DNA from: Acidimicrobiales bacterium
Lineage (GTDB): Bacteria; Actinomycetota; Acidimicrobiia; Acidimicrobiales; SZUA-35
Direction of reading: 5' to 3'
DNA: 54,358 bases
Assembly (NCBI GenBank): GCA_038212405.1
Contig: JBBQUN010000003.1
Coordinates: 1-54,358 of the forward strand
Part shown: positions 9,077 to 54,358 of the stretch, piece by piece
Layout of the letters: every line of letters starts with the position of its first letter
Position numbering within the stretch: position 1 is the first letter of the stretch
The notes under the pieces: model-generated
The model's input: the letters and a program-made list of their open reading frames with translations, nothing else
The model's database searches: none
What the model was told of the DNA's origin: nothing
Translations under genes and position numbers: made by a program

Positions 9077-9151
9077 CGGGCTGTGGCGCAGCTTGGTTAG
9101 CGCGCCTGACTGGGGGTCAGGAGGTCGGGAGTTCGAATCTCCCCAGCCCGA
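9077..9151 (+). tRNA. tRNA-Pro(GGG)
   Basis: Acceptor stem CGGGCTG/CAGCCCG, anticodon arm CCTGA-CTGGGGG-TCAGG (GGG at 9112-9114), T-loop TTCGAAT. CCA not encoded. Confidence 0.97.
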
Positions 9152-9168
9152 CGGTAAAACAGCAGGTC

Positions 9169-9263: not shown

Positions 9264-10403
9264 ATGGCGTGGATTTCAGAGGGGAAACCGGCGGTTCATA
9301 AGCACCGTGGGCGTTGGGTGGTACGAGAGCCTGGCTACGACACGGTGACCGGCAAGGTCCGCCCGAAGCAGCACGGTACGTTCTCGACGAAACGTGACGC
9401 GCTTGCGCTCGCTCGCAAGGCGGGCGAAGGTCGGATCAGCACATCGGATCAGACGCTCGAGGACTTTCTGTACAAGGTCTGGATTCCGTCGAAGGAGTCT
9501 CGGGTCGAGCAGTCGACGCTGAACCAGTACCTCTGGGCCGTGGACGGACACATCGTGCCGCTCCTCGGCGCAGTGAAGCTGAAGGACATAAGTCCGGAGC
9601 TCATCGACGGCTGGATCCACGACCTCTCACGGGCACCTGCCAGCGGGGGCAAGCCTCGTATCGGCGTGACCTCGACGAGACTCGCCCGCAAGATCCTCTC
9701 GATGGCTCTCCAAGAGGCGGTCCAACGTGATCTGATCGCTAAGAACCCGGTCGCTGCAACCCAGCCGCCCCGTCCGGTCCGTGATGGAGGCCGTCAGAGC
9801 TGGACGGTGGTCGAAGCGCAGACCTTCCTCCGGGCGAGCCGAGATCACCGCCTCTACGGCGTGTTCCACCTGGCGCTGGTCACCGGTATGCGTCGAGGCG
9901 AGCTTCTCGGACTGCGCTGGCGGGATATCGACATGGCAAATGGCCTGATCTCTGTTGAGCAACAGCTCGCCGTGGTTGGAGGGCGCCCGGTGCTCAAGTC
10001 GCTGAAGACGTTGGCCAGCGAACGGTTGCTGACGATCGGTCCTCGAACCGTCGAGCTGCTCAGGGAACGACGAGACCAGCAAACCGAGGAGTATCTGTTC
10101 GCTGGACTCGATCCCCGTGACGCCGACCTCGTGTTCACGAACGAGGTCGGGGGGCTGCTCGATCCGAACAACCTGGGCCGCATCCTGACCCGCCTCGCCG
10201 CCGACGCCGGCGTGCCTCGGATTACGCCGAAGGGTCTGCGGCATACTGCTCAGTCGATCGGCCGAGTCGTCGTCGGCGACGACAAGGTGATGCAGGAACG
10301 ACTCGGCCACGCTGACATCGGCGTCACCCTGAATACGTACACCCACACCGAGACTGAGCAACACCGCCGAGCCGGCGACCTGATTGACGGAGTATTCGAT
10401 TGA
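9264..10403 (+). CDS. Tyrosine recombinase/integrase (ICE integrase)
   Basis: N-terminal arm-binding-like domain, TGMRRGELLGL, PKGLRHT, LGHAD and TYTH catalytic Tyr. Confidence 0.93.
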   Translation: MAWISEGKPAVHKHRGRWVVREPGYDTVTGKVRPKQHGTFSTKRDALALARKAGEGRISTSDQTLEDFLYKVWIPSKESRVEQSTLNQYLWAVDGHIVPLLGAVKLKDISPELIDGWIHDLSRAPASGGKPRIGVTSTRLARKILSMALQEAVQRDLIAKNPVAATQPPRPVRDGGRQSWTVVEAQTFLRASRDHRLYGVFHLALVTGMRRGELLGLRWRDIDMANGLISVEQQLAVVGGRPVLKSLKTLASERLLTIGPRTVELLRERRDQQTEEYLFAGLDPRDADLVFTNEVGGLLDPNNLGRILTRLAADAGVPRITPKGLRHTAQSIGRVVVGDDKVMQERLGHADIGVTLNTYTHTETEQHRRAGDLIDGVFD

Positions 10404-12567: not shown

Positions 12568-12719
12568 CTTTCCAGTCAGACCTGTCGAGTTGCGAGTGCA
12601 CTCGCGGAAGGTGCCTCGGTGGCAGTGGGGGGCGTGCGTCGGTCAGATCATCGTCGCCCGAGCGGCCTTTCCGGTGGAGTAACCCCGTTTCGATGCGCAT
12701 CGAAACGCCGGATCGAGGC

Positions 12720-14420: not shown

Positions 14421-14525
14421 GGCCACCAGCATGCCCCAAAAGCCGGCTCCTCATCGGAGCCCGACTAGTGTGAGTGTGTTCTGGAGCGCCCGTGGGCTTT
14501 GTGTCTCGGAAATCGGCCTCGCGCA

Positions 14526-14732
14526 TTATGCCGACTCTGCCTGCGGTTGCTCGAGCATCCGAAGCAGCGACGTGAGTGGGATCACGATTCGTCGACCGAG
14601 ACGGACGGACGGTATGCGGCCTTGGCGGACAAGCTCGTACGCCGTCGATCTCGAGATGCCGAGAATATCGGCAGCTTCGACCACCGTGAGGGTTCGAGGG
14701 TCCTTGCGGGATCGGTCTTGAGAGATGAGCAT
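14526..14732 (-). CDS. Excisionase-like helix-turn-helix protein
   Basis: LTVVEAADILGISRSTAYELVRQGRIPSVRLGRRIVIP; GGAGG RBS upstream. Confidence 0.88.
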   Translation of the reverse strand: MLISQDRSRKDPRTLTVVEAADILGISRSTAYELVRQGRIPSVRLGRRIVIPLTSLLRMLEQPQAESA

Positions 14733-14758
14733 GAGTTCCTCCGTTGATAGTCAGGTGT

Positions 14759-41306: not shown

Positions 41307-41348
41307 AATGTGAGATGACTTCAGGAATGTGAGATGGAATGGGAGATG
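41307..41348 (+). repeat. Three tandem AATG(T/G)GAGATG boxes upstream of the sigma-like/virD4 operon
   Basis: Copies at 41307-41317, 41326-41336 and 41338-41348. Confidence 0.8.
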
Positions 41349-41379: not shown

Positions 41380-42135
41380 ATGCCAAAGGATCTCTTGCGG
41401 ATGTTCGATGAGGAGTGGGCCGTGGTCGGGTCGTCGGTCGTGTCACGGCGGCGATTGGCCGCCTGGCAGGATGGTGACCCTCGGTTGCGTGGGTGTCGCT
41501 CACCCGCCGATCTGATCGCTCGCATCAGACATGGCGACCTGTTCGACTCTCGTGAGCTGTGCCACGGCTTGCTGGCCCTGGTCGGTCACGACGAGTTCGC
41601 CGTCCGAGTTCTGCTGCAGGCGATGATGCCGTCCCTGACGAATGAACTGGTGCGGTTGCTGGTGCCGGTCAGGGCGTCGTCATCGACCAGTTTCACAGCC
41701 GACGACGGTGAGGTCGATCAGATCCTCGTCTGTGCTGCGAATCAGGCAGTCCACGAGCATGCCGGATCGATCTCGATGTGGCCGATGTCGGATCTCGTGC
41801 ATCGCACGCACCGATTGGTCGTACAACGAATCCGTCACGAGCGCCGCTGGATGTCGGCGAACTGCGTGACCGACGAGGTCTTGTTCGGGACTGTCGCCCC
41901 GCCGCCTGGTGAGGAACCTGACTCGTCGGTCGAGGCGCTGGCGGTATTGCTTCGTGACGTTGCTCGCGAAGGTCGGGTGGCGAAGGCGGATGTTGCGTTG
42001 GTGTGGAAGTCGCGCCTTGCCGGGTTCGATTCGGCCGAGATGGCTGGCGAGCTTGGTGTCAGCACCGACACGTTTCTTCGCCGACGTCATCGGGCCGAAT
42101 CCAGAATTGTCGAGGCGATGCGGGAGGTTGCCTGA
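41380..42135 (+). CDS. Divergent sigma70/ECF-like factor
   Basis: Region-2-like D.FAVRVLLQAMMP.L helix and C-terminal region-4-like HTH (SAEMAGELGVSTDTFLRRRHRAESRI). TGATG overlap with virD4. Start uncertain. Confidence 0.65.
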   Translation: MPKDLLRMFDEEWAVVGSSVVSRRRLAAWQDGDPRLRGCRSPADLIARIRHGDLFDSRELCHGLLALVGHDEFAVRVLLQAMMPSLTNELVRLLVPVRASSSTSFTADDGEVDQILVCAANQAVHEHAGSISMWPMSDLVHRTHRLVVQRIRHERRWMSANCVTDEVLFGTVAPPPGEEPDSSVEALAVLLRDVAREGRVAKADVALVWKSRLAGFDSAEMAGELGVSTDTFLRRRHRAESRIVEAMREVA

Positions 42136-44255
42136 TGGCGAGCGACACCCGGTCGACCGCCGGTTCCGGTCCCGACGAGTGGGCGGCGTTCGTCATGCTC
42201 GGCGTCGGCGTGTTGGTTGTTGCTGTCTGGTCGGGTGCTCAGATGGCGACGTTATTGGCAACCGGTCACTGGTTGGCAGCAACGATTGGTGATGGCCTCG
42301 GGGCAATGCTCCGGCTTCCGTCGAACGCATCGAAACCGGCGCTTGCTTGGCCGTCGACGGTGCAGTCCGATCTGCCGGGGCCAATCGTCTACTGGTCGGT
42401 CACGGCTGTCGTGGTCGTGGTCCAGGCTGCTGTGTGCACCTGGCTCGGAGTGCGAATGTTCAGTTGGCGGGTCGGGACCGACAAGCGTGAACGCCTCGGC
42501 GTCAACGCGAACGCTCGGTTCGCCACGGCCAAGGATCTGCGAACGATCATCGTCACAGGTCCACAGCCTGGCCGGTTCATCATGGGCAGGGTTGGTGGAA
42601 ACCTCGTAGCCACCGAGAACCGTGCGGGTGCGCCGACCCGTCGACGTCGCAAGGGCGAACCGGTCGATCGCCAGGGTGACCGGTCGGCCGTTGCGGTCAT
42701 CGGGCCACAGCGTTCGGGCAAGACGGTGAATGTGATCTCGGGGATCCTCGAGTGGGAGGGTCCGGCGATTCTCAGCTCGGTTCGTGACGATCTGTTCGAG
42801 CGGACGATCACCCGTCGGTCGCAGCTCGGTCAAGTGTTCGTGTTCGATCCGCTCGAATCGCTTGGTGAGCTTCCCGAGGGCGTTCACCGTGTGGGTTGGT
42901 CGCCGTTGCATGTGGCCGGGACGGTTTCGGGGGCAATGGAGGCGGCGAGCGTTCTGCTCGAGGCTGCGCCGTTGGAGGGGACGACCAACGCCAACTATTG
43001 GAACAAGAAGGGTGAGGCGTTGCTGTGGCCGATCCTGTTCACCGCAGTGATCTCGGGGAAGTCGATGGCCGATGTGGTGCGTTGGCTGGCGTTGCAGGAC
43101 GGCAACCAGACCAAGGACGTCGAGGAAGACGACGGGGCTGCGGTGAAGCCAAAGCCCGGCGACGTCGTTGGGGAGGAGCCGAAGAAGCAAGAGCCTGCCG
43201 GTGAGATCCGGGCGTTGTTGAATCTGGCGATCGCCGACACGAAGCGGCCAGCCGTGCAGGCGCAGGCTCGTCACGCTCTGGCCCAGTTCGATGGGTTCTG
43301 GCTGTTGGACCATCGAACGAGGTCGGACATCTTCTCCACCTCGCAGACGTTGGTGCAGCCGTGGGAGGACCCGTATGTTTCGTTCGCTTCGTCGCCGGGG
43401 ATCGGCTCGGTGGTGGATCTCGGGATGCTGCTGGATGGGAACAACACGTTGTATGTCGTGCAGCCGCTGAAGTCGACGCAGCGGTTCTCGGTGGTGTTCG
43501 GCGGTCTGCTCGGTGCGCTGCTGAAGGATCAGGCGTACGAGGCCGCTCACCGCTTCGGCGGGCCGTTGCCTGATCTGCTGGTGGTGATCGACGAGGCGGG
43601 AAACACGCCGTTGCAGTGGTTGCCTCAGGTGGCGTCGACATGTTCGGGGATCGGTGTGCTGTTGGTGACGGTGTGGCAGTCCAAGGCGCAGATCGATGCG
43701 ATCTATCAGAAGCAGGCCGATCCGCTGCTGACGAATCACGGGTCAAAGATCTTCTTCGCCGGGGTGAGCGACGAGTCCACGCTTCGGTACGTGTCGTACC
43801 TGGGAGGGGAGGAGGAGGTACACCAGCGATCTTCGAGCTCGGATGTCCATGCGTCGTCGACCCGCCGGTCGATTGGCGACACGACGACTCACAAGCGGTT
43901 GTTGCCAGCTGAGCTGCTGCGCCAAGTCATGCCGGGTGAAGGTTTGCTCGTGCACGGGACGCTGCCTCCGGCGCACATCAAGAGCCGTCGATATTGGGCC
44001 GATCCGAAACTGCGGGCGCTTGCTGCTGGCGAGGGTGAGGCACCGCCAGCGGTTGAGTCCCCCTCGGCGCTGAAAGCTGCCTTGCGCTTCGATCGGACTC
44101 CCCGCCAGGAGATCCTCGATCACTTGCCGGACCACGAGACGAAGTCTCGACCTCGACCGTTGGGCGATGACCCCGTCACTGACCACTCACGACCGAGCGG
44201 ACCCAAGCCGCTCGGACAAAGCCGCGATGACCACGAGGGCGGCATCGAGCGGTGA
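42135..44255 (+). CDS. virD4: Type IV coupling protein (VirD4/TraG family)
   Basis: Two N-terminal TMs, GPQRSGKT, FVFDP, IDEAGN, WQSKAQI. Confidence 0.93.
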   Translation: MASDTRSTAGSGPDEWAAFVMLGVGVLVVAVWSGAQMATLLATGHWLAATIGDGLGAMLRLPSNASKPALAWPSTVQSDLPGPIVYWSVTAVVVVVQAAVCTWLGVRMFSWRVGTDKRERLGVNANARFATAKDLRTIIVTGPQPGRFIMGRVGGNLVATENRAGAPTRRRRKGEPVDRQGDRSAVAVIGPQRSGKTVNVISGILEWEGPAILSSVRDDLFERTITRRSQLGQVFVFDPLESLGELPEGVHRVGWSPLHVAGTVSGAMEAASVLLEAAPLEGTTNANYWNKKGEALLWPILFTAVISGKSMADVVRWLALQDGNQTKDVEEDDGAAVKPKPGDVVGEEPKKQEPAGEIRALLNLAIADTKRPAVQAQARHALAQFDGFWLLDHRTRSDIFSTSQTLVQPWEDPYVSFASSPGIGSVVDLGMLLDGNNTLYVVQPLKSTQRFSVVFGGLLGALLKDQAYEAAHRFGGPLPDLLVVIDEAGNTPLQWLPQVASTCSGIGVLLVTVWQSKAQIDAIYQKQADPLLTNHGSKIFFAGVSDESTLRYVSYLGGEEEVHQRSSSSDVHASSTRRSIGDTTTHKRLLPAELLRQVMPGEGLLVHGTLPPAHIKSRRYWADPKLRALAAGEGEAPPAVESPSALKAALRFDRTPRQEILDHLPDHETKSRPRPLGDDPVTDHSRPSGPKPLGQSRDDHEGGIER

Positions 44256-45120: not shown

Positions 45121-46149
45121 TCACATCGCTGCTGAGGCGACGAGAAACAAGACGACCACAATGACCAGCATCGCTGCTGCGGCTGCGATGAGGGCGTGCC
45201 TTTCTCGCCGCTTCGACTGTTGCTGGGCGGCGGTGGCCGCAAGGGTCTCGCGTGCCGCGGTCGCTTCCGCTGCAGCGGCTCTCGCCTGAGCTGCCTTGGT
45301 GACGAGTGCTTCGGCCTGTTGGAGGGCTGTGCTGCGTCGTTCGTTGAGCCAGGCCGCTGCGGCCGATGGAGTGGGGAGGCTCGTGTGGGCGACGAGATCG
45401 ACGATGTGGTTGTCGGTTGCATGGCCGACAGCGACGATCACCGGGGTCGTTGCGGCGACGATGACCTGTGCGACTTCGCTGGAGTCGAACGCCACGAGGT
45501 CTGTGGCAGCACCTCCGCCTCGGCAGATCACGATGGCCTGGCAACCCGGCTGTTGGGCACGGGCAACGGCTTCGCTGATTGCTGCGATGGCGCCGGTGCC
45601 CGACATCGGTACCTCGATGGTGTCGATACTCCAGCGGTGCCCACCGACCCGCAGCCGGTCGAGGAAGTCAGCACCCCCGGCCCCGCCGCCAGTCGGGCAG
45701 ATGAGCGTGAGCGTGTCGGCGCTGTATGGCAACCGCAGCCGCTTGTTGATCTTGTCGAGGCTGTCGGCTTCGATCCTTCGCCGAAGGACTGTCGTGGCTC
45801 TGGCGGCGGACGACTCCTGGCCGACGACGGTTAGCCGATACACACAAAATTGGAGCGGTCCGTAGAGACGATGAATCGTGAGTTTGCCGAACACGATCAC
45901 CTCGGTGCCGTCGAGATCGAGCCGTCCATTCGGAAGCGATCGTGGAAGGAACACCAGGCGAATCCTCGACTCGATTCGATCGGTTTCGTTGTGGGCGACC
46001 AGTTCGCCGTAGCTCCAGTGTTTGCGCTGCTGAAAGCCGGAGATGGTGCCGGTGACCTTCATGTAGTCGGTGCTCGCGACCAGGACATCGCTGACGAGGC
46101 CGAGTATCTCCGTCACCGTCGCTGGAATCTGGAACGGCTCCGCTGTCAT
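45121..46149 (-). CDS. Exonuclease VII large subunit (XseA)-like nuclease with C-terminal TM anchor
   Basis: N-terminal OB fold (VTGTISG...H.SY.EL), RGGG..TDL..FD, PVIVAVGHATD, D.VA....TPSAAA; ends LIAAAAAMLVIVVVLFLVA. ATGA overlap with the relaxase stop. Confidence 0.85.
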   Translation of the reverse strand: MTAEPFQIPATVTEILGLVSDVLVASTDYMKVTGTISGFQQRKHWSYGELVAHNETDRIESRIRLVFLPRSLPNGRLDLDGTEVIVFGKLTIHRLYGPLQFCVYRLTVVGQESSAARATTVLRRRIEADSLDKINKRLRLPYSADTLTLICPTGGGAGGADFLDRLRVGGHRWSIDTIEVPMSGTGAIAAISEAVARAQQPGCQAIVICRGGGAATDLVAFDSSEVAQVIVAATTPVIVAVGHATDNHIVDLVAHTSLPTPSAAAAWLNERRSTALQQAEALVTKAAQARAAAAEATAARETLAATAAQQQSKRRERHALIAAAAAMLVIVVVLFLVASAAM

Positions 46150-49100
46150 CGGCTGATTCGTAGGGCTCGTGCGGGGTCAGGTCCTGGCGTTTGGATGATG
46201 GCGTTCACGGTTTGCCGGGTCTGTTCCCATCGGCGTGCCTGCAGCGGCTCGTCGGGTTGGGTCCCGATGGCGTGTGCGAGCCCACCACGATCAGAGGCGA
46301 CGGCTCCGGTGTGGTGGGTACGGCCGAGCTGGCCGATCCGGTAGCGCTCGATCTCCGTTGCGGCTTGGTCCCATCGTTTGCCGGCTTCCGGGTCGGTCGG
46401 GCGTTCGCCGAGTGTCTGGGTCCGGTAGGGTCGGGGTTCGGCGAGTGCTGTTTCGACATGTCGATCGATCAGGGTGTCAACCACTGCGAGTTCGACGCTG
46501 GCCCGGTCTCGTTGCGCCGCGATCTGCGGGGCTCGTTGTTGGGTGGCGGCAATGTCGGCGAGGTGTGCCCGAGCGACATCGAGTTGCCAGTCGGTGTCGG
46601 CGATGAAACGCCTTGCGACCTCTGGGCCGTCCGGGTCTTTCTTGAGTGCCTTCTTCTTCGACAACGCGGGGAGGGATCGTTCGATCTGATCACGGTCCTT
46701 GGCGAGCAGCGCGATCCGTTGTTCGAGTTGGCGGGCGACACCGTTCTGGTAGCCGAGGCCGTCAGACCGCAAACCTTGGAGGTCGTCGACGATCTGGCGG
46801 CGTGTGCGGGCGAGGTCGGGTGCGCTGAGTTGCCGGTTGTTGTCGGCACGGGCGTCGACGATCGCGCCGAGGAGCTGTTTGTGGTCGTCCCGCTGTCGGG
46901 CCGGACTCGTGTCGGTGAGGGCTGGGGCGATTTGGCCGTCGGTGGGCTCGATGTTCCAGCGCAGGTTGTAGGTGGCGTACTGCCCGGCGGCTTTGTCCCA
47001 CAGCTCGGCTCGTTGCCGGTCGCGTTCGCCGAGGACCGCGACGAGCGGTGCCGGCGGATCGGTGATGGTGTCGGCCACGGCTCGTTTGGTGAGGAGTTCG
47101 GCGGCACGCCTGGTGTTGGGCGTGTTGAGCGCCTCGAGTTCGACGAGCAGCTTTCTGGTGTGGGCGAGGACGTCGGCGATGTCGAAGTCGGCGACGGTCG
47201 CGAGATCGACGGGTTTGGCCCGGGTGAGTTGGGCTTCGACTCGTTCCTGGAGTTCACGGGTGTCGGTGACGATGGGGAGCTGGTGTTCGGCGGCCGGTGT
47301 CGGCTCGGCGAACGCTGCGGCGTCAACCGCGTAGAACCGGACGTCGAGTTGTCCGCGGGTGAGAGCGACGTATTGACCCTCGGTGCTGGAACGGTCGGTC
47401 AGCAACGAATGCGACGTCGAGTAGGTGTCGCCTTGGGCGGCGTGCGTGGTCATGGCGTAGGCCGGTGTGAGGCCGCCGTTGATGCCATCACGGAGGCGGG
47501 TGGTGAGCCAGTCGTGGGGAACAACGATTGGTCCGCGTTGTTCGAAGTCGACAATCAGCGACGGTTCTGAACCTTCACCGATCGAGATGACGGTTCCTTT
47601 CGTGCCGTTGTGGATATAGGAGTTCCGGTCGCCACGGTCGGGTCTGAGTTCACGGTTCTGGGCACGGGCCATGACCCGGTCGCCGACGTGGAAGGTCGAA
47701 TCGCCGAGCGTCACTCCGGGCCCGGTGATGATGCCGTCGGCGTGGAGGAGTGCTTGGGCTCGGGTGTTGAGTTCACGGCGTGCCGAGTGTGTTTCGGCCA
47801 GCATTCTTGAGGGATTGATGATGTCGGGGTCGGCGAGGTGTCGTTGCCAGGCGACGTACCAATCGGCGGTGAGGGTGTCGAGGAGTTCGGGTGAGGTGGC
47901 GGCGGTGATGATGCGTTGGTTCGTGTCGAGCCGTTCGAGCGCCTCGGCGATCCGTCCGCTTCGGTAGTCGGCAGCTGCGAGCCGAATGTCGGCCATCTCG
48001 GGTGCCCGTTGGCGACGGTTCTCGCTGAGCGCGGGCGTGCGGTCCGGATGAAGTCGGGTCAGGTGTGCCCACATGCCACCCGCTTCGACCGAGGCGTGCT
48101 GGGCCGGGTCGCCGATGGTGCGCATCGTCGATCCCGCTCGTTCGACGTGGCGGACCAACGCTGCGTGGGCACGGTTTCCGAGCGTTGATGCCTCGTCGAC
48201 GATGACGACACTTCGTGCGTCGAGCAGCTGCGGGTTGTGGTCGAGGCGGCGCACGAATCCGGCGACGGTTGTTGCAGGGATTCCAGTCGAGGCTTGGAGG
48301 ACTTCGGCTGCGGTGCCGTTCACTGCTGCGCCGTAGAGGGTGTAGCCATCGCCTTCCCAAGCTCGTGCAGCGACCTCGAGGGCGGCGGTCTTGCCCGACC
48401 CGGCAGGACCGATGACGGCTTGGAACCGATCGCCGGAAGAGGTGATGGCGTGGACCATGGCGGCTTGGTCGGTGCCCAGCGTGTGGCCGGTGAGGGTCTG
48501 CCAACGGTCGATGGCCGCCTGTGTGGTCGTCGGGTCGACGACTCCGGCGCCGACGTTGTGACCTCTCGGGTATGCGAGGGCGATGGTCTGTTCGGTGTGG
48601 ATGATGTCGGGCGTGGTGTAACGGATCATGCCCGGGGTGAGGGTGACCTTGCCGGCATCGCCGATCAGATCGGCGGCGACACCATCTTGGGAGCGGATCT
48701 CGATGACCTGTTCGGTGTTCAACCATCGGTCGGCCAGGTCGGTCACCTCGTCGGCGTTGAGCCGTCCGCCGGAGAAGTCGGTCGTCGCCTCTATGACGTG
48801 GCGTCGGTCGAAGATCGCTGTCTGCTCGGTGACGCCCTGCGGGGATGAGAGGTGTTGGTGGAGGCTTGCGGTGTCGTCGGGTGTCCACAGCAGGGGAGCG
48901 TCGTGGGCGGTGAGTGCCCGGATTTCGCTTGGGCCGAGTCCGGTGTCGGCGAGGCGCTGGTCCCAGAGTGATTGGAGTTGGTCCCGGTTGACAGAGGTGT
49001 CTTTGGCGGCCCTCGTTGCGTAGGCGGCGAGCTGGCGAGCAGCAGGGGAGTCGGTGCCGATCTGCCGGACCTCAGCCATGATCTGCGCCTTGCGGGTCGA

Positions 49101-50162
49101 CATCGCGTCCACCGTGGTCGATGGGACGTCGACGAGGTGGGCGATGCCTCGGCGGGTCTCGGTGAATGCGTACCCCTGCCGGTTGAGGATTGATTGGATC
49201 TCGGCCTCTGCGATGTGGCCTGAAGTAGAGGCGTGAGCGTAGGGACCTCGACCGTCGAGGGCCTGGACTCGACCGTCGGGACTCGTGGCCATGTTTGCGA
49301 CGACAACATGGACGTGAAGCTGCGGCTCGAGTTCGCGGCTGGTGTCGTGCAGGAACGATGCTGCGATCATCCCGTCGCCGGGTTCCTGGCCGCGTCCACG
49401 CCGGACAGCGATGGCGTTGTCCTCGATGTAGCCGAGCGCCTTGCCGACAGATTGGTGCAGCGCGTCCTCGATGATCGCTTTGCCCTCATCGTCGGCGGCG
49501 GCCCAAGCGATGGAGATCGACTTCGGCACCGAGTAGGTCAGGTCGTACCCAAGTACCACCTGCGGCTCCTTTCGCTCGGCCTTGAAGCGCTCGACCTCGG
49601 CCCGACTGAATCGCCACTCGCTGTGGCCTCGAGTGCCGACTTCCCGCACACCGTCGATGTATGTCTTGAGAGGAATCGCTGAGTCCTTCTCGCTTGCGAG
49701 CCTGCTAGCGGCGGTGCGCTGGGCAAGGTCGGTGAGGTACTGCCGTTTCACCCCGATGAGGGCCGCTGCCTCCTGTGCCGTCAGGAGCTGATCTGGCTCA
49801 GTTAAGGGGACCACGGCCGCAGCGTGGGTTGCTCGACCCGCTGATCCAATTGCCCCAACGAGTTGCTCACCGGTCTCTGGGTGTTGTCCAAGCAGCACTC
49901 GTCCGAGCATCGCCGGATCAACGAAATGCTGTGCGTCGATCGGAACCATCGCTCGTGCTCCGGCTCCGTGCCATCGCCCCGGCTCTTGCGCTGAGTCGGC
50001 GTAGTAACTCCCCTGTCCGCTGGCGGCGACCAACTCGGGTCCCGAAGTGGCGCGTTGGCCAGCCTCACGATTCTGGTTGCCGGTCAGGTACTCGACTACT
50101 GCGTTCGCCGCTCCGGCGGCCTCGGCACCGGCGGAGCCAAGCTTGCTGACACTGACGTGCAT
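46146..50162 (-). CDS. MOB_F (TrwC/TraI-like) relaxase-helicase
   Basis: EYL/SYYAD tyrosines, PGRWHG.G, GYDLTYSVPKS.S, HDTSR..EPQLHVH; RecD-like helicase motifs GPAGSGKT, VDEAS, GDPAQ, YAMTTHAAQG. Confidence 0.96.
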   Translation of the reverse strand: MHVSVSKLGSAGAEAAGAANAVVEYLTGNQNREAGQRATSGPELVAASGQGSYYADSAQEPGRWHGAGARAMVPIDAQHFVDPAMLGRVLLGQHPETGEQLVGAIGSAGRATHAAAVVPLTEPDQLLTAQEAAALIGVKRQYLTDLAQRTAASRLASEKDSAIPLKTYIDGVREVGTRGHSEWRFSRAEVERFKAERKEPQVVLGYDLTYSVPKSISIAWAAADDEGKAIIEDALHQSVGKALGYIEDNAIAVRRGRGQEPGDGMIAASFLHDTSRELEPQLHVHVVVANMATSPDGRVQALDGRGPYAHASTSGHIAEAEIQSILNRQGYAFTETRRGIAHLVDVPSTTVDAMSTRKAQIMAEVRQIGTDSPAARQLAAYATRAAKDTSVNRDQLQSLWDQRLADTGLGPSEIRALTAHDAPLLWTPDDTASLHQHLSSPQGVTEQTAIFDRRHVIEATTDFSGGRLNADEVTDLADRWLNTEQVIEIRSQDGVAADLIGDAGKVTLTPGMIRYTTPDIIHTEQTIALAYPRGHNVGAGVVDPTTTQAAIDRWQTLTGHTLGTDQAAMVHAITSSGDRFQAVIGPAGSGKTAALEVAARAWEGDGYTLYGAAVNGTAAEVLQASTGIPATTVAGFVRRLDHNPQLLDARSVVIVDEASTLGNRAHAALVRHVERAGSTMRTIGDPAQHASVEAGGMWAHLTRLHPDRTPALSENRRQRAPEMADIRLAAADYRSGRIAEALERLDTNQRIITAATSPELLDTLTADWYVAWQRHLADPDIINPSRMLAETHSARRELNTRAQALLHADGIITGPGVTLGDSTFHVGDRVMARAQNRELRPDRGDRNSYIHNGTKGTVISIGEGSEPSLIVDFEQRGPIVVPHDWLTTRLRDGINGGLTPAYAMTTHAAQGDTYSTSHSLLTDRSSTEGQYVALTRGQLDVRFYAVDAAAFAEPTPAAEHQLPIVTDTRELQERVEAQLTRAKPVDLATVADFDIADVLAHTRKLLVELEALNTPNTRRAAELLTKRAVADTITDPPAPLVAVLGERDRQRAELWDKAAGQYATYNLRWNIEPTDGQIAPALTDTSPARQRDDHKQLLGAIVDARADNNRQLSAPDLARTRRQIVDDLQGLRSDGLGYQNGVARQLEQRIALLAKDRDQIERSLPALSKKKALKKDPDGPEVARRFIADTDWQLDVARAHLADIAATQQRAPQIAAQRDRASVELAVVDTLIDRHVETALAEPRPYRTQTLGERPTDPEAGKRWDQAATEIERYRIGQLGRTHHTGAVASDRGGLAHAIGTQPDEPLQARRWEQTRQTVNAIIQTPGPDPARALRISR

Positions 50163-50197
50163 TTCAGTGGTCGAGGTGATCGAGCGAGGCCATCAGG

Positions 50198-50232
50198 CAA
50201 ACGAGGGACACCCCGAGGCTGGTGGTCGGACA
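50198..50232 (-). promoter_or_regulatory. Element promoter motif copy 5 (relaxase-xseA operon)
   Basis: TGTCCGAC-N15-GTCCCTCGTTTG. Shares 15 identical bp with copy 1. Confidence 0.8.
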
Positions 50233-50289
50233 GTGACGGTCGTATTGGGTCAGCGTCGAACACGGTGGCGAGGCGCTGCTCTCCACCGT

Positions 50290-50331
50290 GGCCATCTCAC
50301 ATTCTCGGCGAGGGCCATCTCACATTCCTGA
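50290..50331 (-). repeat. Two GAATGTGAGATGGCC boxes next to candidate oriT
   Basis: GGCCATCTCACATTC at 50290-50304 and 50313-50327. 50315-50331 is the exact reverse complement of 41321-41337. Confidence 0.8.
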
Positions 50332-50335
50332 GCAG

Positions 50336-50378
50336 TGGAGCTTGCCAACGGCAAGCTCCAGTTGTGTCATGCCTTTTC
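50336..50378 (+). other. Candidate oriT: hairpin followed by putative nic region
   Basis: TGGAGCTTGCC-AAC-GGCAAGCTCCA perfect 11-bp stem followed by GTTGTGTCAT, upstream of a MOB_F relaxase gene. Confidence 0.55.
50359..50378 (+). repeat. att core, left copy
   Basis: CAGTTGTGTCATGCCTTTTC, identical to 54095-54114. Confidence 0.85.
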
Positions 50379-50480
50379 CCGTAGCCAAAGTAGTAGTTGG
50401 GATGGGATAACGCCTTCGCCCCGCAAGCCAGCGGTTTGAGCTGCCGAAGGCAGCGATTCGGGTGAGCGAAAATCAGCGCT

Positions 50481-50500
50481 GTGTCAAACCTATGTCAAAC
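50481..50500 (+). repeat. Integrase arm-type site pair, left
   Basis: GTGTCAAACCTATGTCAAAC; 19/20 match to 53977-53996. Confidence 0.75.
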
Positions 50501-50651
50501 GAGATCGGAGCACAGCGGCCGGTCCGAGACCTGGTGAACCGTGCTCCCCAGGTTCGGGGACAGCGGCGGCCGCCAGTGCGCGATATGGAGCAGTTGACCG
50601 CTCTCGTCCGTGCCGCTATCGGACGCCTGCCGGAGCATTCCGAGGCGGTCA

Positions 50652-51293
50652 TTATGTAGCGCCCTCGCAACGGTCTGACCTCTCACAGTGCGCCGGTGGC
50701 GCAGTGCAACAGCCGCGCTCGGTGGCTCGGGATTGTGCGCCGGGTCGTTCGCTGCTCGGGCCTCCCTCTCTCATGTCCCGAAATGGGTGAATCAGGGAGT
50801 GGCGGATTGATCGAGCAGGGCCGCTTCTTGAATCGTGGCTGTGGTTCGCATGGGTGGCTGGTGTCGGCCAGATCGTGAGGACAGCCAAGAGTGTGGCGCC
50901 GGTGGTGATGTAGACGTCGGCGACGTTGAACGTGGGCCACCAGCCGAGGTGCAACAAGTCGACGACGCTGCCGGACTCGAGGCGATCGATGCTGTTCGCG
51001 ATGGCGCCGGCCACGACCATCGAGGTCGGGACCATCGGCGCCTGGCCTGCGAGCAAGGCTCCGACGAGAAGTGCGGCGATCAGCAGGCCTGCTGCGACGA
51101 GTACGACTGCGGGCAGCCGGTTGAAGAGGCCGAATGCGATTCCGTCGTTGTAGCTGAGTTGCAGGTCGAGTGGCCCCGGAAGCTCGATCGGCCCGTTGTC
51201 GAGTGCTTGCACCGCCCAGGCTTTGGAGGCGAGGTCAATGACGATCAGCGCTGCTGTCACGATGGCGAAGCTCCCGTGGCGTCGCAGTGTCAT
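50652..51293 (-). CDS. lspA: Lipoprotein signal peptidase II
   Basis: D.ASK, YNDGIAFG, GAIANSIDR, VVD, PTFNVAD; long low-similarity C-terminal tail. Confidence 0.9.
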   Translation of the reverse strand: MTLRRHGSFAIVTAALIVIDLASKAWAVQALDNGPIELPGPLDLQLSYNDGIAFGLFNRLPAVVLVAAGLLIAALLVGALLAGQAPMVPTSMVVAGAIANSIDRLESGSVVDLLHLGWWPTFNVADVYITTGATLLAVLTIWPTPATHANHSHDSRSGPARSIRHSLIHPFRDMREGGPSSERPGAQSRATERGCCTAPPAHCERSDRCEGAT

Positions 51294-52078
51294 CGGCTCA
51301 TGCCGAGGATGCGGCGAGCACCGTTGGCGACGACGGCGAAGATGAACCCACCGGCGATCAAGTCCGGGATCGCAGAGTCGAAGGCGATGACTCCGATGGC
51401 TGCGGCGATGACGAGGGCGTTGACCTTGATGTCGTTCGCGGTGAAGATCCAGCTGGCTTGGAGGTGGACCTCACCGGACCGAACCTGGTTCAAGATGACG
51501 AGAGTGACGAGGTTGCCGGCGAGTGCGAGTGCGGACAGCACGATCATCGACGTCGGGTCGGGGAGTTCGGTGTCGACGACGAATCGGCGGATCACCTCGA
51601 CGAGACCGACCGCGGCGAGGCCGAGCTGGACATAGCCGCTGGCCCGTGCGAGGCGCTTCTTGTGGGCCGCCGCGGTGCCGACGGCTGCGAGGCTGAGTGC
51701 GTACACGCTGGCATCGGCGCCCATGTCCAGCGCGTCGGCTACCAACCCCATCGAGCGACTGATGACCCCGACGGTGAGCTCACCGATGAAGAACCCGGCA
51801 TTGATGATCAAGGCGATGAGCAGCGCCCGTTGCTCTCGCACCGAGTCGCCCTCGGTGCCCATGTCACTGGTGTCGTCGACGTGGCGGGCACCTAGGCCAA
51901 GCGGTTCGAGCACATCGCCGATCGCTCCAGCGTTCGAGCGATGCTCGATGAGGACGTCGCGCTGTTGGCTGTCGAACTCGACCCGCTCGACGTCGTCGCG
52001 GTCGTCGAGTGCCATGCGAATGAGTTGTTCTTCTGCGGCGCAGTCCATCGCCGGCACGTGGAACCGACTGACCGTCAT
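51290..52078 (-). CDS. HMA-like domain + cation diffusion facilitator family transporter
   Basis: VPAMDCAAEE N-terminal domain; SMGLVADALDMGADA, HLQASWIFTAND, PDL; about 6 TMs. Confidence 0.88.
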   Translation of the reverse strand: MTVSRFHVPAMDCAAEEQLIRMALDDRDDVERVEFDSQQRDVLIEHRSNAGAIGDVLEPLGLGARHVDDTSDMGTEGDSVREQRALLIALIINAGFFIGELTVGVISRSMGLVADALDMGADASVYALSLAAVGTAAAHKKRLARASGYVQLGLAAVGLVEVIRRFVVDTELPDPTSMIVLSALALAGNLVTLVILNQVRSGEVHLQASWIFTANDIKVNALVIAAAIGVIAFDSAIPDLIAGGFIFAVVANGARRILGMSR

Positions 52079-52425
52079 GACGTCTCCGTTTCGGGCTCGT
52101 AGTTGGGGCACAGCTCGATGCCGGTACCGGTGACAGCGAGGAGCTGCTCAGCGGATCGCAGCACGTCGACGACCTCGGAGTGGGCGATGCGGTAGAAGGC
52201 CTCGCGCCCGCTTCGGCGATCGACGACAAGCCCGCAGTCCCTCAAGCACCTCAGATGCCCGGAGATGTTGGCCTGTGACGCGTCGAGGGTTTCGACGATG
52301 TCAGTCACGCGACGTTCACCACCAGCGAGCAGACTCAGGATGGACAGGCGTGTTCGATCACCGAAACCGCAGAACAGCTTCGCTGCCACGGCGACATCGC
52401 CCGAACGCTCAATGGTCGCACTCAT
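52075..52425 (-). CDS. ArsR/SmtB-family metal-sensing repressor (CmtR/CadC-like)
   Basis: GDRTRLSIL..L..GE..V, SQANISGHLRCLRDCGLV, C-terminal Cys (LCPNY). Confidence 0.92.
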   Translation of the reverse strand: MSATIERSGDVAVAAKLFCGFGDRTRLSILSLLAGGERRVTDIVETLDASQANISGHLRCLRDCGLVVDRRSGREAFYRIAHSEVVDVLRSAEQLLAVTGTGIELCPNYEPETETS

Positions 52426-52431
52426 GGGACC

Positions 52432-52479
52432 CAATCGTATCAGTCATGACCGATACATCGGTGTTGAGCGATACGATTG
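52432..52479 (-). promoter_or_regulatory. ArsR-type operator/promoter
   Basis: Nested inverted repeats: CAATCGTATC/GATACGATTG and GTATCAGTCA/TGACCGATAC (one mismatch). TACGAT -10-like hexamer 8 nt before the ATG. Confidence 0.75.
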
Positions 52480-52761
52480 TGTTGGCAACAACCCCGACCG
52501 CCGCTTCCTCGTGCGCAACCGGCCACCACACCCAACCTGCACGTCCCACGCATATCGACGGCGCAGAATCACCGCCCTCGAGCGCAGACCACCACTCGGT
52601 ATCGACCCCAGTGCAGTGCTCGATAGTCACCACCGCGCGAGGCACCTCTCGGCGATCAGATCCGGCAATATGCAATCGCGCGTGTCCGAGGGCATTCGAT
52701 AACGATCGGCGACTGGAGGTGGCAGGGGTCATACGATCCGGCGCTCCCACCGTCCGGGCGA

Positions 52762-53952
52762 TCAGCCGGCTCGACTATGTGGGACCCCGCTTGCTTCGTT
52801 TGCGGCTGATGCTGTGAGGAGGTTTGCGATTTGCCGGGCTGCGGTGGCTTGTTGGCCGGGCATGACGTGGGCGTAGACGGCGAGGGTCATCGAAGCGTTC
52901 GCGTGGCCGAGTCTTTGGGCGACGACGTGGACGGGAACGCCCGCCCTCAGTGCGATCGTGGCGTGCGTGTGCCGTAGGTCGTGGAATCGGATCCTGGGAA
53001 GGTCAGTCTTCGCGGCGAGCCGAAGAAACCGCTCGCTAAGGTAGTCGGGCCGCAACGGCCGACCGTCGGGGTAGACGAACACGTGCCCGTCGAGGCTGGC
53101 CAAGCTTTGGCGTCGACGGTGGCGTTTCATGATTTCGACGGTGCCGGGGTCGAGGTCGACGGTTCTTGCGGTGCCGTTCTTGGGTGTTGAGGTGATGGTT
53201 TCGGTCCCGACTCGGGTTCGTGACTCGGCGACTGCGATTCGTGATTGTGTGAGGTCGAGATTTCGCCAGCGGAGCGCTGCGATTTCGCCTCGTCGCATCC
53301 CGGTGAGCGCTGCGAGATGCCATAGCGCTTGGAGGTGATCGGCGGCGACACTTCCGAGGAAGTGAGCGAGTTCGTTGGTGTCCCAAGCTCGGATCGGCTG
53401 CTTGGCGGCTCGGGTTCGTCTTGGCGGGTGGGCGTCTTCGGCAACGTTGCGCTTGATGATCCCGGCAGCACACGCGTCAGCGAGCGCGAGGTGCACGAGC
53501 ATGTGGACGTTGCCAACGGTGCGAGGGCGCAGCCCGCCAGATCCGTTGATGCGTCCGTTGCGGAGAAGGTCGGCGTACAGCGCGTCGAGGTGTGCTCCGG
53601 TGAGTTCGTGGAGGCGGAGACCACCGATGGTTGGTAGGACGTGATGCCGAAGATTCGCCATGTAGGAGGCGATCGTCGTTGGTTTGGCGCGGGCTGCGAT
53701 GCTGGCGAGCCACTGGTCGGTGATCCACCCGCCGAGGGTGAGCCCGGTGGGTTCGACGTAGGTGCGGGCGTAGATGCGGCTCACGAGCTCCGCCCGGGCT
53801 TGTTCTGCGTCGCCCCGGCTGGGGTATCCGCCGTGCCATTTCTGGCGGCGCTTTCCTTCGAGTGTCTTGCCGATGTCGACCACGACGTACCAGCGGACGG
53901 TCTTCTTGCCGGTCTTGGTGGTGTGGGTGCGCTTACGGATGTGTCCCTGCAT
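52762..53952 (-). CDS. Tyrosine integrase of the mini-element
   Basis: Arm-binding N-terminus (GHIRKR...RRQKWHGGY), TGMRRGEI, TPKNG, RFHDLRHTHAT, LGHA, VYAH; GGAGG RBS. Confidence 0.95.
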   Translation of the reverse strand: MQGHIRKRTHTTKTGKKTVRWYVVVDIGKTLEGKRRQKWHGGYPSRGDAEQARAELVSRIYARTYVEPTGLTLGGWITDQWLASIAARAKPTTIASYMANLRHHVLPTIGGLRLHELTGAHLDALYADLLRNGRINGSGGLRPRTVGNVHMLVHLALADACAAGIIKRNVAEDAHPPRRTRAAKQPIRAWDTNELAHFLGSVAADHLQALWHLAALTGMRRGEIAALRWRNLDLTQSRIAVAESRTRVGTETITSTPKNGTARTVDLDPGTVEIMKRHRRRQSLASLDGHVFVYPDGRPLRPDYLSERFLRLAAKTDLPRIRFHDLRHTHATIALRAGVPVHVVAQRLGHANASMTLAVYAHVMPGQQATAARQIANLLTASAANEASGVPHSRAG

Positions 53953-53976
53953 GGGTCACCTCCGACGGGGTTACTG

Positions 53977-53996
53977 GTGTCAAACCTGTGTCAAAC
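53977..53996 (+). repeat. Integrase arm-type site pair, right
   Basis: GTGTCAAACCTGTGTCAAAC. Confidence 0.75.
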
Positions 53997-54094
53997 ATGA
54001 ACGCCGTTTCCGGCTCGGTTCAAGGGATGACCCCGCTGCTGCGATCGGCGTATGCCCTGTTGAGGGCCGCTTCGGAGCCAGCCGATCGAAGCCG

Positions 54095-54114
54095 CAGTTG
54101 TGTCATGCCTTTTC
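54095..54114 (+). repeat. att core, right copy
   Basis: CAGTTGTGTCATGCCTTTTC, identical to 50359-50378. Confidence 0.85.
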
Positions 54115-54358
54115 TCCGTCCTGGATCGTGAGATGAGGTGGCCGGGCCTATCGACAGAGCAGGAAGTGGAGCTCCTTCCGTGCAGATCAATCGGTGGAGG
54201 CGGCGTATCGGTTAGCAAGCCACGTGCCGAGCCCGGAGTGGGAATGGTGCGAGAACAGCTTCGGTGAGACCTTGCGTGGGCTGGCGGCCCGATCAAGCAT
54301 GGCTGCGACGAGGAGGAGTTGCCCAGCGGTAGCGAGCCGTTGGATCACAGCGATGTCC

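What the first reader, a model, noticed from the sequence alone, without database searches (positions are those of the whole stretch)
50359..54114. Minimal integrative metal-resistance element that targets the ICE's putative nic site
Seen: perfect 20-bp direct repeats, tandem TGTCAAAC arm sites symmetrically about 100 bp inside each end, an integrase plus ArsR-CDF-LspA, and no relaxase, rep or xis of its own. The att core overlaps the hairpin base and the predicted nic. Known: oriT-targeting mobilisable elements exist in streptococcal ICEs. Inference: a hitchhiker that uses the conserved nic as attB, lands at the very front of the transferred strand, and carries a nic copy in its excised circle, possibly allowing mobilisation by the host relaxase or modulating ICE transfer.
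Basis: partly seen in the sequence, partly recalled or inferred. Interest (0 to 1): 0.85.

Follow-up and report, generated by a model that had tools for sequence, protein, structure and literature searches.

The report
Small integrase element inserted in ICE oriT
A 3.7-kb gene cassette with its own integrase but no transfer genes sits exactly in the DNA site where a neighbouring conjugative element is most likely nicked to start transfer, a lifestyle so far described only in streptococci and their relatives, where the elements carry their own relaxase.

Summary
Perfect 20-bp direct repeats (50359-50378, 54095-54114) and tandem TGTCAAAC arm sites about 100 bp inside each end bracket integrase, ArsR, CDF and LspA genes. 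Each motif occurs only twice in the 5-Mb genome. No relaxase, rep or xis was detected.

The target is very probably the ICE's oriT. The same hairpin plus A(G/A)NTGTGT(C/A)T motif, in the same orientation, lies upstream of 13 of 29 homologous MobF relaxase genes, against about 0.5 expected.

The element is mobile. Integrases 94-95% identical carry two other cargo sets, and one contig shows an attP-like int-arm-core-arm junction. An identical copy has a different right flank in another sequencing run. Crossover maps to TGTGTCA, which includes the nick predicted from R388.

The integrase clade that sits beside this core is small. Homologues at 50% identity or less sit beside tRNA or xis genes.

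Not shown: the nick itself, an empty allele of this ICE, a circle, or mobilisation by the host relaxase.

Verdict: new variant of a known kind, a relaxase-less MOB_F/Acidimicrobiia counterpart of streptococcal IME_oriT. Interest 0.62.

The parts
9077..9152 (+). tRNA-Pro (GGG), the likely integration site and left border of the host ICE
   Evidence: ARAGORN. Housekeeping-type genes lie to its left.
9264..10403 (+). Host ICE tyrosine integrase, a different protein about 30% identical to the small element's integrase
   Evidence: Pfam PF00589; tblastn hit.
42003..44255 (+). Type IV coupling protein (VirD4/TraG-like) of the host ICE
   Evidence: PF02534 85.4 bits and PF12696 73 bits.
46146..50162 (-). 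MobF/TrwC relaxase-helicase of the host ICE, 1338 aa, intact frame
   Evidence: PF08751 220.9 bits and AAA_30. NCBIfam MobF equivalog 192.3 bits against a cut-off of 100.
50290..50327 (+). Two direct 15-nt boxes GGCCATCTCACATTC to the left of the hairpin. Inferred to be accessory-protein or regulator sites of the oriT.
   Evidence: Family D14. Comparable boxes flank the site in relatives.
50337..50359 (+). oriT inverted repeat: 10-bp stem, 3-nt loop. The proximal arm is 50350-50359.
   Evidence: DNA fold z = -3.67. The stem is kept with different sequences in 13 relaxase-linked sites.
50359..50378 (+). Left 20-bp direct repeat (attL core), identical to the conserved single-stranded nic region of the oriT
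   Evidence: The invariant GTGT is 50364-50367 (alignment A1).
50363..50369 (+). Inferred 7-bp strand-exchange (overlap) region TGTGTCA. The nick predicted by R388 geometry falls between 50368 and 50369.
   Evidence: L133 attL and attR differ at core position 4. The flank in run X2 diverges after core position 11. R388 geometry comes from PMC4176350. This part is inference.
50379..50410 (+). Element-borne degenerate copy of the oriT right half (spacer plus inverted box)
   Evidence: It resembles the right half of the G014:C5 site. The box is intact in the sister element L133.
50481..50500 (+). Arm-type sites P': tandem TGTCAAAC
   Evidence: D5; only two such sites in the genome; conserved in L133 and L132.
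50652..51293 (-). Cargo: lipoprotein signal peptidase II paralogue (LspA)
   Evidence: PF01252 93.1 bits. TIGR00077 70.1 bits is just below its cut-off.
51290..52111 (-). Cargo: CDF-family divalent-cation efflux protein with a weak N-terminal HMA-like stretch
   Evidence: PF01545 42.8 bits; HMA 19.3 bits is below cut-off.
52075..52434 (-). Cargo: ArsR/SmtB metalloregulator
   Evidence: PF01022 57.5 bits; NF033788 83.8 bits against 55.
52429..52482 (.). 26-nt inverted repeat just upstream of arsR, inferred to be the operator
   Evidence: Inverted repeat I1, 81% complementary.
52762..53952 (-). Element tyrosine integrase, 396 aa, with arm-binding, SAM-like and catalytic domains
   Evidence: The R...HxxR...H...Y residues are read from the translation. 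Copies 94-95% identical occur on metagenome contigs.
53977..53996 (+). Arm-type sites P (tandem TGTCAAAC), 25 nt upstream of the int start codon
54095..54114 (+). Right 20-bp direct repeat (attR core)
54128..54143 (+). Inverted box GTGAGATGAGGTGGCC, the ICE's own oriT right half, now 3.7 kb away from the hairpin
   Evidence: Equivalent inverted boxes lie to the right of the core in relatives.

Best explanation
A 3,736-bp site-specific integrative element has recombined, through its own lambda-type tyrosine integrase, into the nic region of the origin of transfer of a T4SS-type ICE integrated at tRNA-Pro.

The element consists of an integrase, P and P' arm sites and an ArsR-CDF-LspA cargo. It has no relaxase, coupling protein, replication or excisionase gene.

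Its attP core copies the conserved 20 nt that follow the oriT hairpin. Strand exchange occurs within TGTGTCA, which includes the position where a MobF relaxase is expected to nick.

Integration leaves the ICE's hairpin, proximal arm and nick sequence intact at attL. It moves the ICE's right-hand box 3.7 kb away and places the element immediately 3' of the nick. If the ICE transfers, the element would therefore enter the recipient first.

What is shown: the anatomy, the conservation of the site upstream of relaxases, the mobility of the element family, its site preference and its variable cargo.

What is inferred: the identity of the site as oriT, the nick position, the 7-bp overlap, and co-transfer with the ICE.
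For: Anatomy:
- Repeats and arm sites are each unique pairs in the genome.
- The integrase has an arm-binding domain.
- No mobilisation gene was detected.

oriT:
- A hairpin (stem 7-12 bp) followed by A(G/A)NTGTGT(C/A)T lies 60-566 nt upstream of 13 of 29 relaxase-homologue loci, and of 12 of the 17 best-scoring ones. It always has the window's orientation.
- The same detector gives 311 hits in 10.1 Mb of the own genome, about 0.02 per 600 nt, so about 0.5 would be expected in 29 loci.
- Stem sequences differ while pairing is kept. GTGT and three proximal-arm bases are invariant in 21 of 21 aligned sites.
- The geometry matches R388: inverted repeat, 9-nt single-stranded stretch, then the nick (PMC4176350 passages).

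Mobility:
- L133 carries an integrase 95% identical with a 5.7-kb element of different cargo between the same core repeats.
- L132 has int-P-core-P' in an attP arrangement with a third cargo set.
- Run X2 holds a copy with 0 mismatches over 1,746 nt whose flank diverges inside the core. Run X4 has another oriT-like right flank.
- 18 runs from 10 studies hold the stretch or part of it.

Clade:
- The six integrases beside the core form one clade with SH-aLRT 100 (quick tree).
Against: - No nick has been mapped.
- In most relatives the base after the predicted nick is T, whereas R388 needs a purine there. The exact position is therefore uncertain by a base or two.
- Hairpin-core sites also occur away from any TrwC gene: G079:C8, G078:C1, G014:C5, G330:C3 and G120:C209. 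The motif is therefore not exclusive to relaxase neighbourhoods.
- The sister copy L133 has chromosomal-type genes and no hairpin on its left.
- 5 of the 17 best relaxase loci lack the motif within 600 nt.
- No empty-site allele of this ICE and no circle junction were seen. All laid runs are contigs, which drop rare forms.
- The ICE's right end is not on the contig.
Confidence: 0.75

Rival explanations
1. The element is more than a passenger. Its attP is a working oriT mimic, so the helper relaxase can nick it. Either the excised circle is mobilised in trans, or transfer starts at attL and ends at attR. The second route would deliver exactly the circular attP form without any excisionase. This is an iOriT/MGI-like lifestyle combined with oriT targeting.
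For: - attR and attP keep the 20-nt nic region and the three invariant proximal-arm bases (A1).
- In L133 and L132 the eight bases before the core (GAAGCTGC) equal the proximal arm of the G078 oriT-like site.
- In R388 only the proximal arm and the 9-nt stretch are essential in the donor (PMC4176350).
- No xis gene was found.
- Relaxase-less integrative elements with oriT mimics are known (PMC5397120 passages; bioRxiv 10.64898/2026.01.13.699239 abstract).
Against: - The element's own left arm forms no significant hairpin (z = +0.85, 162 of 200 shuffles fold as well).
- Its proximal arm differs from this ICE's arm at positions close to the core (AAGCCGC against AAGCTCC). R388 tolerated only the wild-type arm.
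- The similarity next to the overlap is also what integrase core-binding sites would require.
- In streptococcal IME_oriT no cis-mobilisation was found (PMC7563843).
Confidence: 0.3
2. The insertion was made by the relaxase rather than the integrase. TrwC-type relaxases catalyse site-specific integration between two nic copies, which would also leave the nic region duplicated at both ends.
For: - TrwC integrates transferred DNA into an oriT copy (PMC3264647, abstract start seen in the listing; PMC4176350 introduction).
- The repeat contains the predicted nick.
Against: - Symmetric arm-type sites and an arm-binding integrase are the signature of lambda-type attP.
- The association with the core is a property of one integrase clade.
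- One sister copy sits where no relaxase gene is within reach: 5.6 kb to the left and 6.7 kb to the right on L133.
Confidence: 0.07
3. The hairpin-core is not an oriT. It is a conserved attachment or regulatory site, or a hot spot of a family of islands, and its position next to relaxase genes is incidental.
For: - Five loci have the site without a TrwC gene nearby.
- G078, 94% complete, has no TrwC match at all.
- The site is also hit by an IS110-family element.
Against: - 13 relaxase-linked occurrences come from several families of the order (family labels). They share a fixed orientation and lie at short distances, and no integrase of the core-associated clade was found in those genomes at 53% identity or more.
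- The architecture equals that of MOB_F nic regions.
- Orphan oriT copies on islands are a known phenomenon.
Confidence: 0.1
4. Assembly artefact, or a fixed and dead insertion.
For: The genome is a 532-contig assembly, and the contig ends 244 bp beyond the element.
Against: - Contigs of run X1 cover both junctions with 0 differences, though X1 may be the source sample.
- L133 independently shows the same architecture.
- The integrase frame is intact.
- Identical copies have other flanks.
Confidence: 0.03

Closest known systems
IME_oriT of streptococci and Staphylococcus aureus (Libante et al. 2020, PMC7563843; abstract and sections 3.1 and 4 read)
   Same: - Small integrative elements (2.7-10.9 kb there) with a tyrosine integrase and direct repeats.
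- They integrate in the stem-loop or nic part of the oriT just upstream of an ICE relaxase gene.
- Some copies lie inside other IMEs or at secondary chromosomal sites.
- Cargo is variable and includes metal resistance.
   Different: - Those elements encode their own Rep_trans/MobT-type relaxase and need it for transfer. This element has none.
- Their targets are MobT oriTs of Firmicutes. This target is a MobF/TrwC oriT, and by the record titles the relatives are Acidimicrobiia.
- Integrase relatedness to them was not tested.
Relaxase-less integrative hitchers with an oriT mimic: SXT/R391-dependent MGIs (PMC5397120, passages) and 'iOriT' islands (bioRxiv 10.64898/2026.01.13.699239, abstract and passages)
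   Same: - An integrase plus att sites plus a copy of a helper-like oriT sequence, with no relaxase or mating-pore genes.
- Unrelated to the helper apart from the oriT.
   Different: - Those elements integrate at chromosomal sites such as yicC or trmE, and their oriT is separate from their att site.
- Here the oriT-like sequence is the att core itself and the target is the helper's oriT.
- At 3.7 kb this element is below the 4 kb given there as the lower size of integrative elements (one exception is mentioned there).
- Function of the mimic is not shown here.
R388 oriT and TrwC (PMC4176350 passages; PMC3264647 listing only)
   Same: - An inverted repeat directly 5' of a conserved single-stranded stretch and the nick.
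- The relaxase gene lies next to it and would be transferred last.
- The relaxase belongs to the MobF family.
   Different: - The stem is 10 bp with a 3-nt loop, against 5 bp with a 4-nt loop in R388.
- The conserved stretch is A(G/A)NTGTGT(C/A)T.
- Nothing has been tested biochemically.
tRNA- and xis-associated tyrosine integrases of the same protein family
   Same: 33-50% identical over the full length, with the same three-domain layout.
   Different: - 19 of 69 such rows have a tRNA gene (mostly Arg) within 600 nt upstream of int. Others have an xis-like gene there.
- None has the hairpin-TGTGTC site.

Membership tests
IME_oriT (Firmicutes oriT-targeting IMEs) | Integrated in the stem-loop or nic part of the oriT upstream of an ICE relaxase gene | tested here: met
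   The repeat begins at the last stem base, 197 nt upstream of the relaxase start. The site is conserved upstream of 13 of 29 relaxase homologues. Its identity as oriT is inferred, not assayed.
IME_oriT (Firmicutes oriT-targeting IMEs) | Own relaxase of the Rep_trans/MobT family | tested here: not met
   No relaxase or Rep domain in any element ORF, nor in the cargo of L133 and L132.
IME_oriT (Firmicutes oriT-targeting IMEs) | Target oriT belongs to a MobT-relaxase ICE | tested here: not met
   The host relaxase is MobF/TrwC.
IME_oriT (Firmicutes oriT-targeting IMEs) | Integrase closely related to that of IME_SagLMG15084_oriT | not tested
   No reference sequence was fetched.
Relaxase-less oriT-bearing integrative elements (MGI / iOriT) | Integrase and att sites, with no relaxase or MPF genes | tested here: met
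Relaxase-less oriT-bearing integrative elements (MGI / iOriT) | Carries an oriT resembling that of a helper | tested here: inconclusive
   attR and attP keep the 20-nt nic region and the invariant arm bases but form no significant hairpin.
Relaxase-less oriT-bearing integrative elements (MGI / iOriT) | Mobilised in trans by the helper's relaxosome | not testable with these tools
   Needs mating or nicking assays.
Lambda-type tyrosine-recombinase integrative element | Catalytic domain and arm-binding domain | tested here: met
   PF00589 93.7 bits, PF14657 32.7 bits and PF14659 28.6 bits, all above cut-off.
Lambda-type tyrosine-recombinase integrative element | Core repeats at both ends and arm-type repeats on both sides of the core in attP | tested here: met
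   The attP-like order int-P-core-P' is seen on L132.
Lambda-type tyrosine-recombinase integrative element | Recombination directionality factor (Xis) | tested here: not met
   None was detected by Pfam or NCBIfam in ORFs of 30 aa or more. A small divergent RDF cannot be excluded.
MOB_F-type oriT | Inverted repeat immediately 5' of a conserved single-stranded stretch, next to the relaxase gene and oriented so that the gene enters last | tested here: met
   Geometry compared with PMC4176350.
MOB_F-type oriT | Site-specific nicking by the cognate relaxase | not testable with these tools
   Biochemistry is needed.
T4SS-type ICE (host element) | Integrase at a tRNA gene, a relaxase, a coupling protein and a VirB4-type ATPase | tested here: inconclusive
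   tRNA-Pro plus integrase, relaxase and T4CP are clear. The VirB4-like hit is below cut-off (22.7 against 25.8 bits). The right end of the ICE is off the contig.

The most novel reading that the evidence does not exclude
One 7-bp sequence (TGTGTCA) serves two enzymes. It is the strand-exchange region of the element's integrase and the nick site of the helper's MobF relaxase. Because the integrated element is flanked by two nic copies in direct order, the relaxase could start at attL and finish at attR. That would deliver the circular attP form to a recipient with no excisionase, after which the integrase would insert it into the next oriT. This would be a relaxase-excised, oriT-homing cassette.
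Probability: 0.25. Interest if true: 0.85.

Novelty: new variant of a known kind. Interest (0 to 1): 0.62.

Why it matters
Integration into a helper's oriT has so far been documented for one family of Firmicutes IMEs, which bring their own relaxase. That statement rests on PMC7563843 and the literature searches, which gave no case in Actinomycetota or in MOB_F oriTs.

A second, unrelated lineage doing the same would show that oriT homing evolved more than once. This lineage has a different relaxase family and phylum, and consists of nothing but an integrase and a copy of the nic region.

It would also link two known strategies in one 3.7-kb element: integrating in the helper, and carrying only an oriT.

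The finding gives a testable oriT consensus for an uncultured group's MobF elements. It also gives a simple system for asking whether insertion at the nick helps, harms or is neutral to ICE transfer.

Tried and rejected
- **Plasmid database:** megablast of 48500-54358 found no match.
- **Family-level DNA search with 50100-50378:** 8 of 88 genomes matched, G000 included. Only three short hits covered the hairpin and core. No close relative of this ICE was found, so no empty allele of this very oriT.
not seen as a joint in the four runs laid. No skip from 50378 to 54115 and no back-joint for a circle appeared in table 5. All four runs are contigs, which drop rare forms, so this says nothing either way. 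The two joints listed there (49784>50945 and 51739>52008) have short sides and are unrelated.
- **Orphan sites next to relaxases?** I first expected the three relatives' sites to lie next to relaxases. They do not. That made me consider that the motif was an att feature only. The relaxase-centred search reversed this.
- **Other relaxases in the own genome:** the two other TrwC genes (C8, C216) have no such site upstream.
- **Integrase near relaxase elsewhere:** G213:C8 and G320:C188 have an integrase 1-3.5 kb upstream of a more distant relaxase. No hairpin-core was found there, and I did not pursue them.
- **GTDB-wide scan with the integrase:** 47 loci, the best 48% identical, none with the site.
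- **Conserved ATG on the minus strand of the core:** it opens only 16-20-codon frames that differ between genomes (read). I rejected it as a gene.
- **Second core copy for the B-type element on L133:** none found on the contig.
- **Tree:** this is the quick method, because the careful search did not finish in 288 s. Before building I dropped the duplicate loci L021 and L022, identical sequences, and rows under 340 or over 480 aa. The 'oriTcore' label was set by identity of 53% or more and then checked by eye for the core, so the clustering test is partly circular.
- **Unpublished genomes:** G128, G228, G298, G151, G338 and G253 were flagged unpublished. They enter only the tallies. L034 (G128) is one tree row and L073 (G298) is one of the 16 motif-less loci. 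No positive evidence rests on them.
- **Supplementary tables of the papers:** these were closed. Table S2 of PMC7563843 may hold relaxase-less or truncated IME_oriT variants that bear on the novelty claim.

Full report
**What is there.** The window is one whole contig of a 532-contig genome.

Bases 1-8800 carry housekeeping-type genes (IspH, a CMAS-type methyltransferase, Der GTPase). A tRNA-Pro lies at 9077-9152 and is followed by a tyrosine integrase (9264-10403).

Transfer-type genes follow:
- an M23/SLT cell-wall hydrolase;
- Tad-like ATPase and platform proteins;
- a prepilin peptidase;
- SSB;
- a weak VirB4-like hit;
- a clear type IV coupling protein (42003-44255).

A 1338-aa MobF/TrwC relaxase-helicase lies at 46146-50162 on the minus strand. 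This is the anatomy of a T4SS-type ICE at a tRNA gene. Its right end lies beyond the contig.

**The observation.** The finding's details all hold.
- The perfect 20-bp repeat CAGTTGTGTCATGCCTTTTC is at 50359-50378 and 54095-54114.
- Its 10-mer TGTGTCATGC occurs nowhere else in 5.05 Mb.
- The tandem TGTCAAAC sites lie 102 and 98 nt inside the repeats, and again only there in the genome.
- Between the repeats are LspA, a CDF transporter, an ArsR/SmtB regulator with a 26-nt inverted repeat in front of it, and a 396-aa tyrosine integrase with an arm-binding domain.
- Nothing resembling a relaxase, Rep or Xis was detected.

To the left of the left repeat are two 15-nt direct boxes (50290-50327) and a 10-bp hairpin (50337-50359; z = -3.67). 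To the right of the right repeat is an inverted copy of the box (54128-54143).

**Is the target an oriT?**

A DNA search in the family first found hairpin-core sites in three relatives. Read out, they have the expected uninterrupted architecture: boxes, hairpin, CAG(T/A)TGTGTCAT, a spacer, then an inverted box. None is within the 16-20 kb fetched of a TrwC gene, and one of these genomes has no TrwC at all. That counted against the oriT reading.

I therefore searched from the relaxase side. The N-terminal 450 aa found homologues in 41 of 401 genomes of the order, the window's own genome G000 included. In the 29 loci returned, I scanned only the strand and side that correspond to the window.
- 13 loci have a hairpin with a 7-12-bp stem followed by A(G/A)NTGTGT(C/A)T, 60-566 nt upstream of the relaxase start.
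- 12 of the 17 best-scoring loci have it, and 1 of the other 12.
- The same detector finds 311 sites in 10.1 Mb of the own genome, so about 0.5 would be expected in 29 upstream regions.
- In the alignment of 21 sites the stem sequences differ while pairing is kept. GTGT (50364-50367) and three proximal-arm bases are invariant.

The layout is that of the R388 nic region as described in PMC4176350:
- an inverted repeat;
- a proximal arm and a 9-nt single-stranded stretch that are essential;
- then the nick;
- positions 2-7 beyond the nick (nt 27-32 in R388) are free; only the base just 3' of the nick is restricted, to a purine.

By that geometry the nick would fall between 50368 and 50369, inside the repeat. 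The element, which lies 3' of it, would be the first DNA to enter a recipient, and the relaxase gene the last. The exact base is uncertain because most relatives have T after that position, where R388 requires a purine.

**Is the element mobile and site-specific?**

A metagenome scan with the integrase gave 61 loci, three of them 94-95% identical.

*L133 (and L131, the same region).* It has the same left end (269 nt, 87%), the same integrase end, the same arm sites and the same core repeats. The element is 5.7 kb and carries an alpha/beta hydrolase, two short-chain dehydrogenases and an MmyB-type regulator. Its left flank is chromosomal-type genes without a hairpin. Its right flank is core, spacer and box, followed by a second integrase 54% identical to the window's (B-type, as opposed to the window's A-type) and two more tyrosine recombinases.

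*L132.* It shows int, P arm, core and, 93 nt further on, a P'-like arm, followed by a CobW-like GTPase and two hydrolases. That is the attP order expected of a circle or a tandem array.

*Sequencing runs.* 18 runs from 10 studies hold the stretch or part of it. Contigs of four runs were laid.
- X1 has both junctions exactly as in the window. It may be the source sample.
- X2 has a copy with no mismatch over 1,746 nt whose flank departs after CAGTTGTGTCA.
- X4 continues after the full core into a different spacer-plus-box.

**Where the crossover lies.** In L133 the fourth core base is T at attL and C at attR, and it is C in the L132 attP. The flank in X2 changes after the eleventh base. Together these confine strand exchange to TGTGTCA (50363-50369), a typical overlap length. 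This stretch also contains the invariant GTGT and the predicted nick. The mapping rests on two polymorphisms and is inference.

**The integrase clade.**
- In the order-level search 89 of 401 genomes, the window's own genome G000 included, have homologues at E of 1e-60 or better.
- Only two reach 55-57% identity, G120:C209 and G330:C3. Both have a complete hairpin-core-spacer-box about 200 nt upstream of int, with their own arm repeats (TCTAAC) and, in G330, another integrase beyond it.
- Of 69 rows at 50% identity or less, 19 have a tRNA gene within 600 nt upstream, others have an xis-like gene, and none has the site.
- In a quick maximum-likelihood tree of 68 rows, the six core-associated integrases form one clade (SH-aLRT 100) with A-type and B-type halves. 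The label was assigned by identity and then checked by eye.

**Mechanism.**

The best-supported reading is integrase-mediated insertion of a minimal element into the nic region of an oriT. The element's attP copies the oriT from the proximal arm rightwards. In L133 it even carries an intact inverted box, whereas the window's copy of the box is degenerate (50379-50410).

By the R388 rules everything needed for nicking survives at attL, so the ICE should still initiate there and carry the element in front.

Whether the element's own copy can be nicked is open. For this:
- it keeps the invariant bases, and in L133 and L132 an arm identical to that of a relative's site.

Against it:
- it forms no significant hairpin (z = +0.85);
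- its arm differs from this ICE's arm next to the core.

**Comparison with the known.** The closest described system is IME_oriT of streptococci (PMC7563843; abstract and sections 3.1 and 4 read).

Shared features:
- the same target logic;
- secondary sites and insertion in other IMEs;
- variable cargo.

Differences:
- a Rep_trans relaxase of its own that is required for transfer;
- no cis-mobilisation;
- MobT oriTs as targets.

Relaxase-less islands with oriT mimics are known as MGIs (PMC5397120, passages) and 'iOriT' (bioRxiv 10.64898/2026.01.13.699239, abstract and passages). Those integrate elsewhere, and their oriT is not their att site.

My searches returned no report of oriT-targeting elements for MOB_F oriTs or Actinomycetota. 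The library covers only open-access papers, and supplements were closed.

I file this as a new variant of a known kind.

Noticed in passing
L018 (G079:C8) 2885-4440: An IS110-family element of about 1.45 kb (transposase 3150-4400, Pfam DEDD_Tnp_IS110 plus Transposase_20) is inserted exactly between hairpin-CAGA and TGTGTCATGCC of an oriT-like site. This is the left edge of the same 7-bp stretch used by the tyrosine integrases, so a second recombinase family homes to this core.
   Followed up: partly
L018 (G079:C8) 2885-6967: Two oriT-like sites in opposite orientation, one of them disrupted by the IS. They flank 2.5 kb holding a MazEF-like pair, an Xis-like HTH, a CsbD-like gene and a small membrane-protein gene (read from the sequence only).
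   Followed up: no
L020 (G014:C5) 10002-10175: Two hairpin-core sites lie back to back, about 110 nt apart and facing outwards. A 20-aa remnant of an integrase N-terminus (65% identical) lies 240 nt away. This looks like the scar of decayed elements at an orphan site.
   Followed up: partly
G000:C46 about 1030-1215 (own genome, another contig): A further oriT-like site (CAGGTCCGCAGGACCTG followed by TAGCTGTGTCT) lies about 140 nt upstream of a relic that keeps only about 40 residues of a relaxase N-terminus (MHLSVTTLG...). The TrwC HMM search did not report it.
   Followed up: partly
G000:C8 1566-24900 (own genome, another contig): A second conjugative gene set: a TrwC relaxase, a T4CP (32% identical), a VirB4-like protein (55% identical) and a large protein. 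It has no hairpin-core site upstream of its relaxase.
   Followed up: partly
window 41310-41337: Two more copies of the box motif ((A/G)TGAGATG, 19 nt apart) lie in the intergenic region in front of the operon that holds the coupling protein. This suggests that one protein binds both the oriT boxes and this promoter. Genome-wide, the 9-mer is not enriched (50 copies against about 39 expected).
   Followed up: no
L133 (reverse complement) 11330-15181: The B-type integrase is followed by two more tyrosine-recombinase genes in the same orientation. The layout resembles 'recombinase in trio' elements; that name is recalled, not tested.
   Followed up: no
window 51282-52091: In three of the four runs laid (X2, X3, and X1 at its peak), summed contig depth over the CDF gene is roughly five- to more than ten-fold that of the rest of the element, with many variant letters. 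Related CDF genes are therefore common in other organisms of the same samples.
   Followed up: no
window 40250-41125 and L019 (G078:C1): A DUF4214 protein of the ICE has several paralogues around the orphan site of G078, including one fused in frame to a broken integrase (L019 4038-6053).
   Followed up: no
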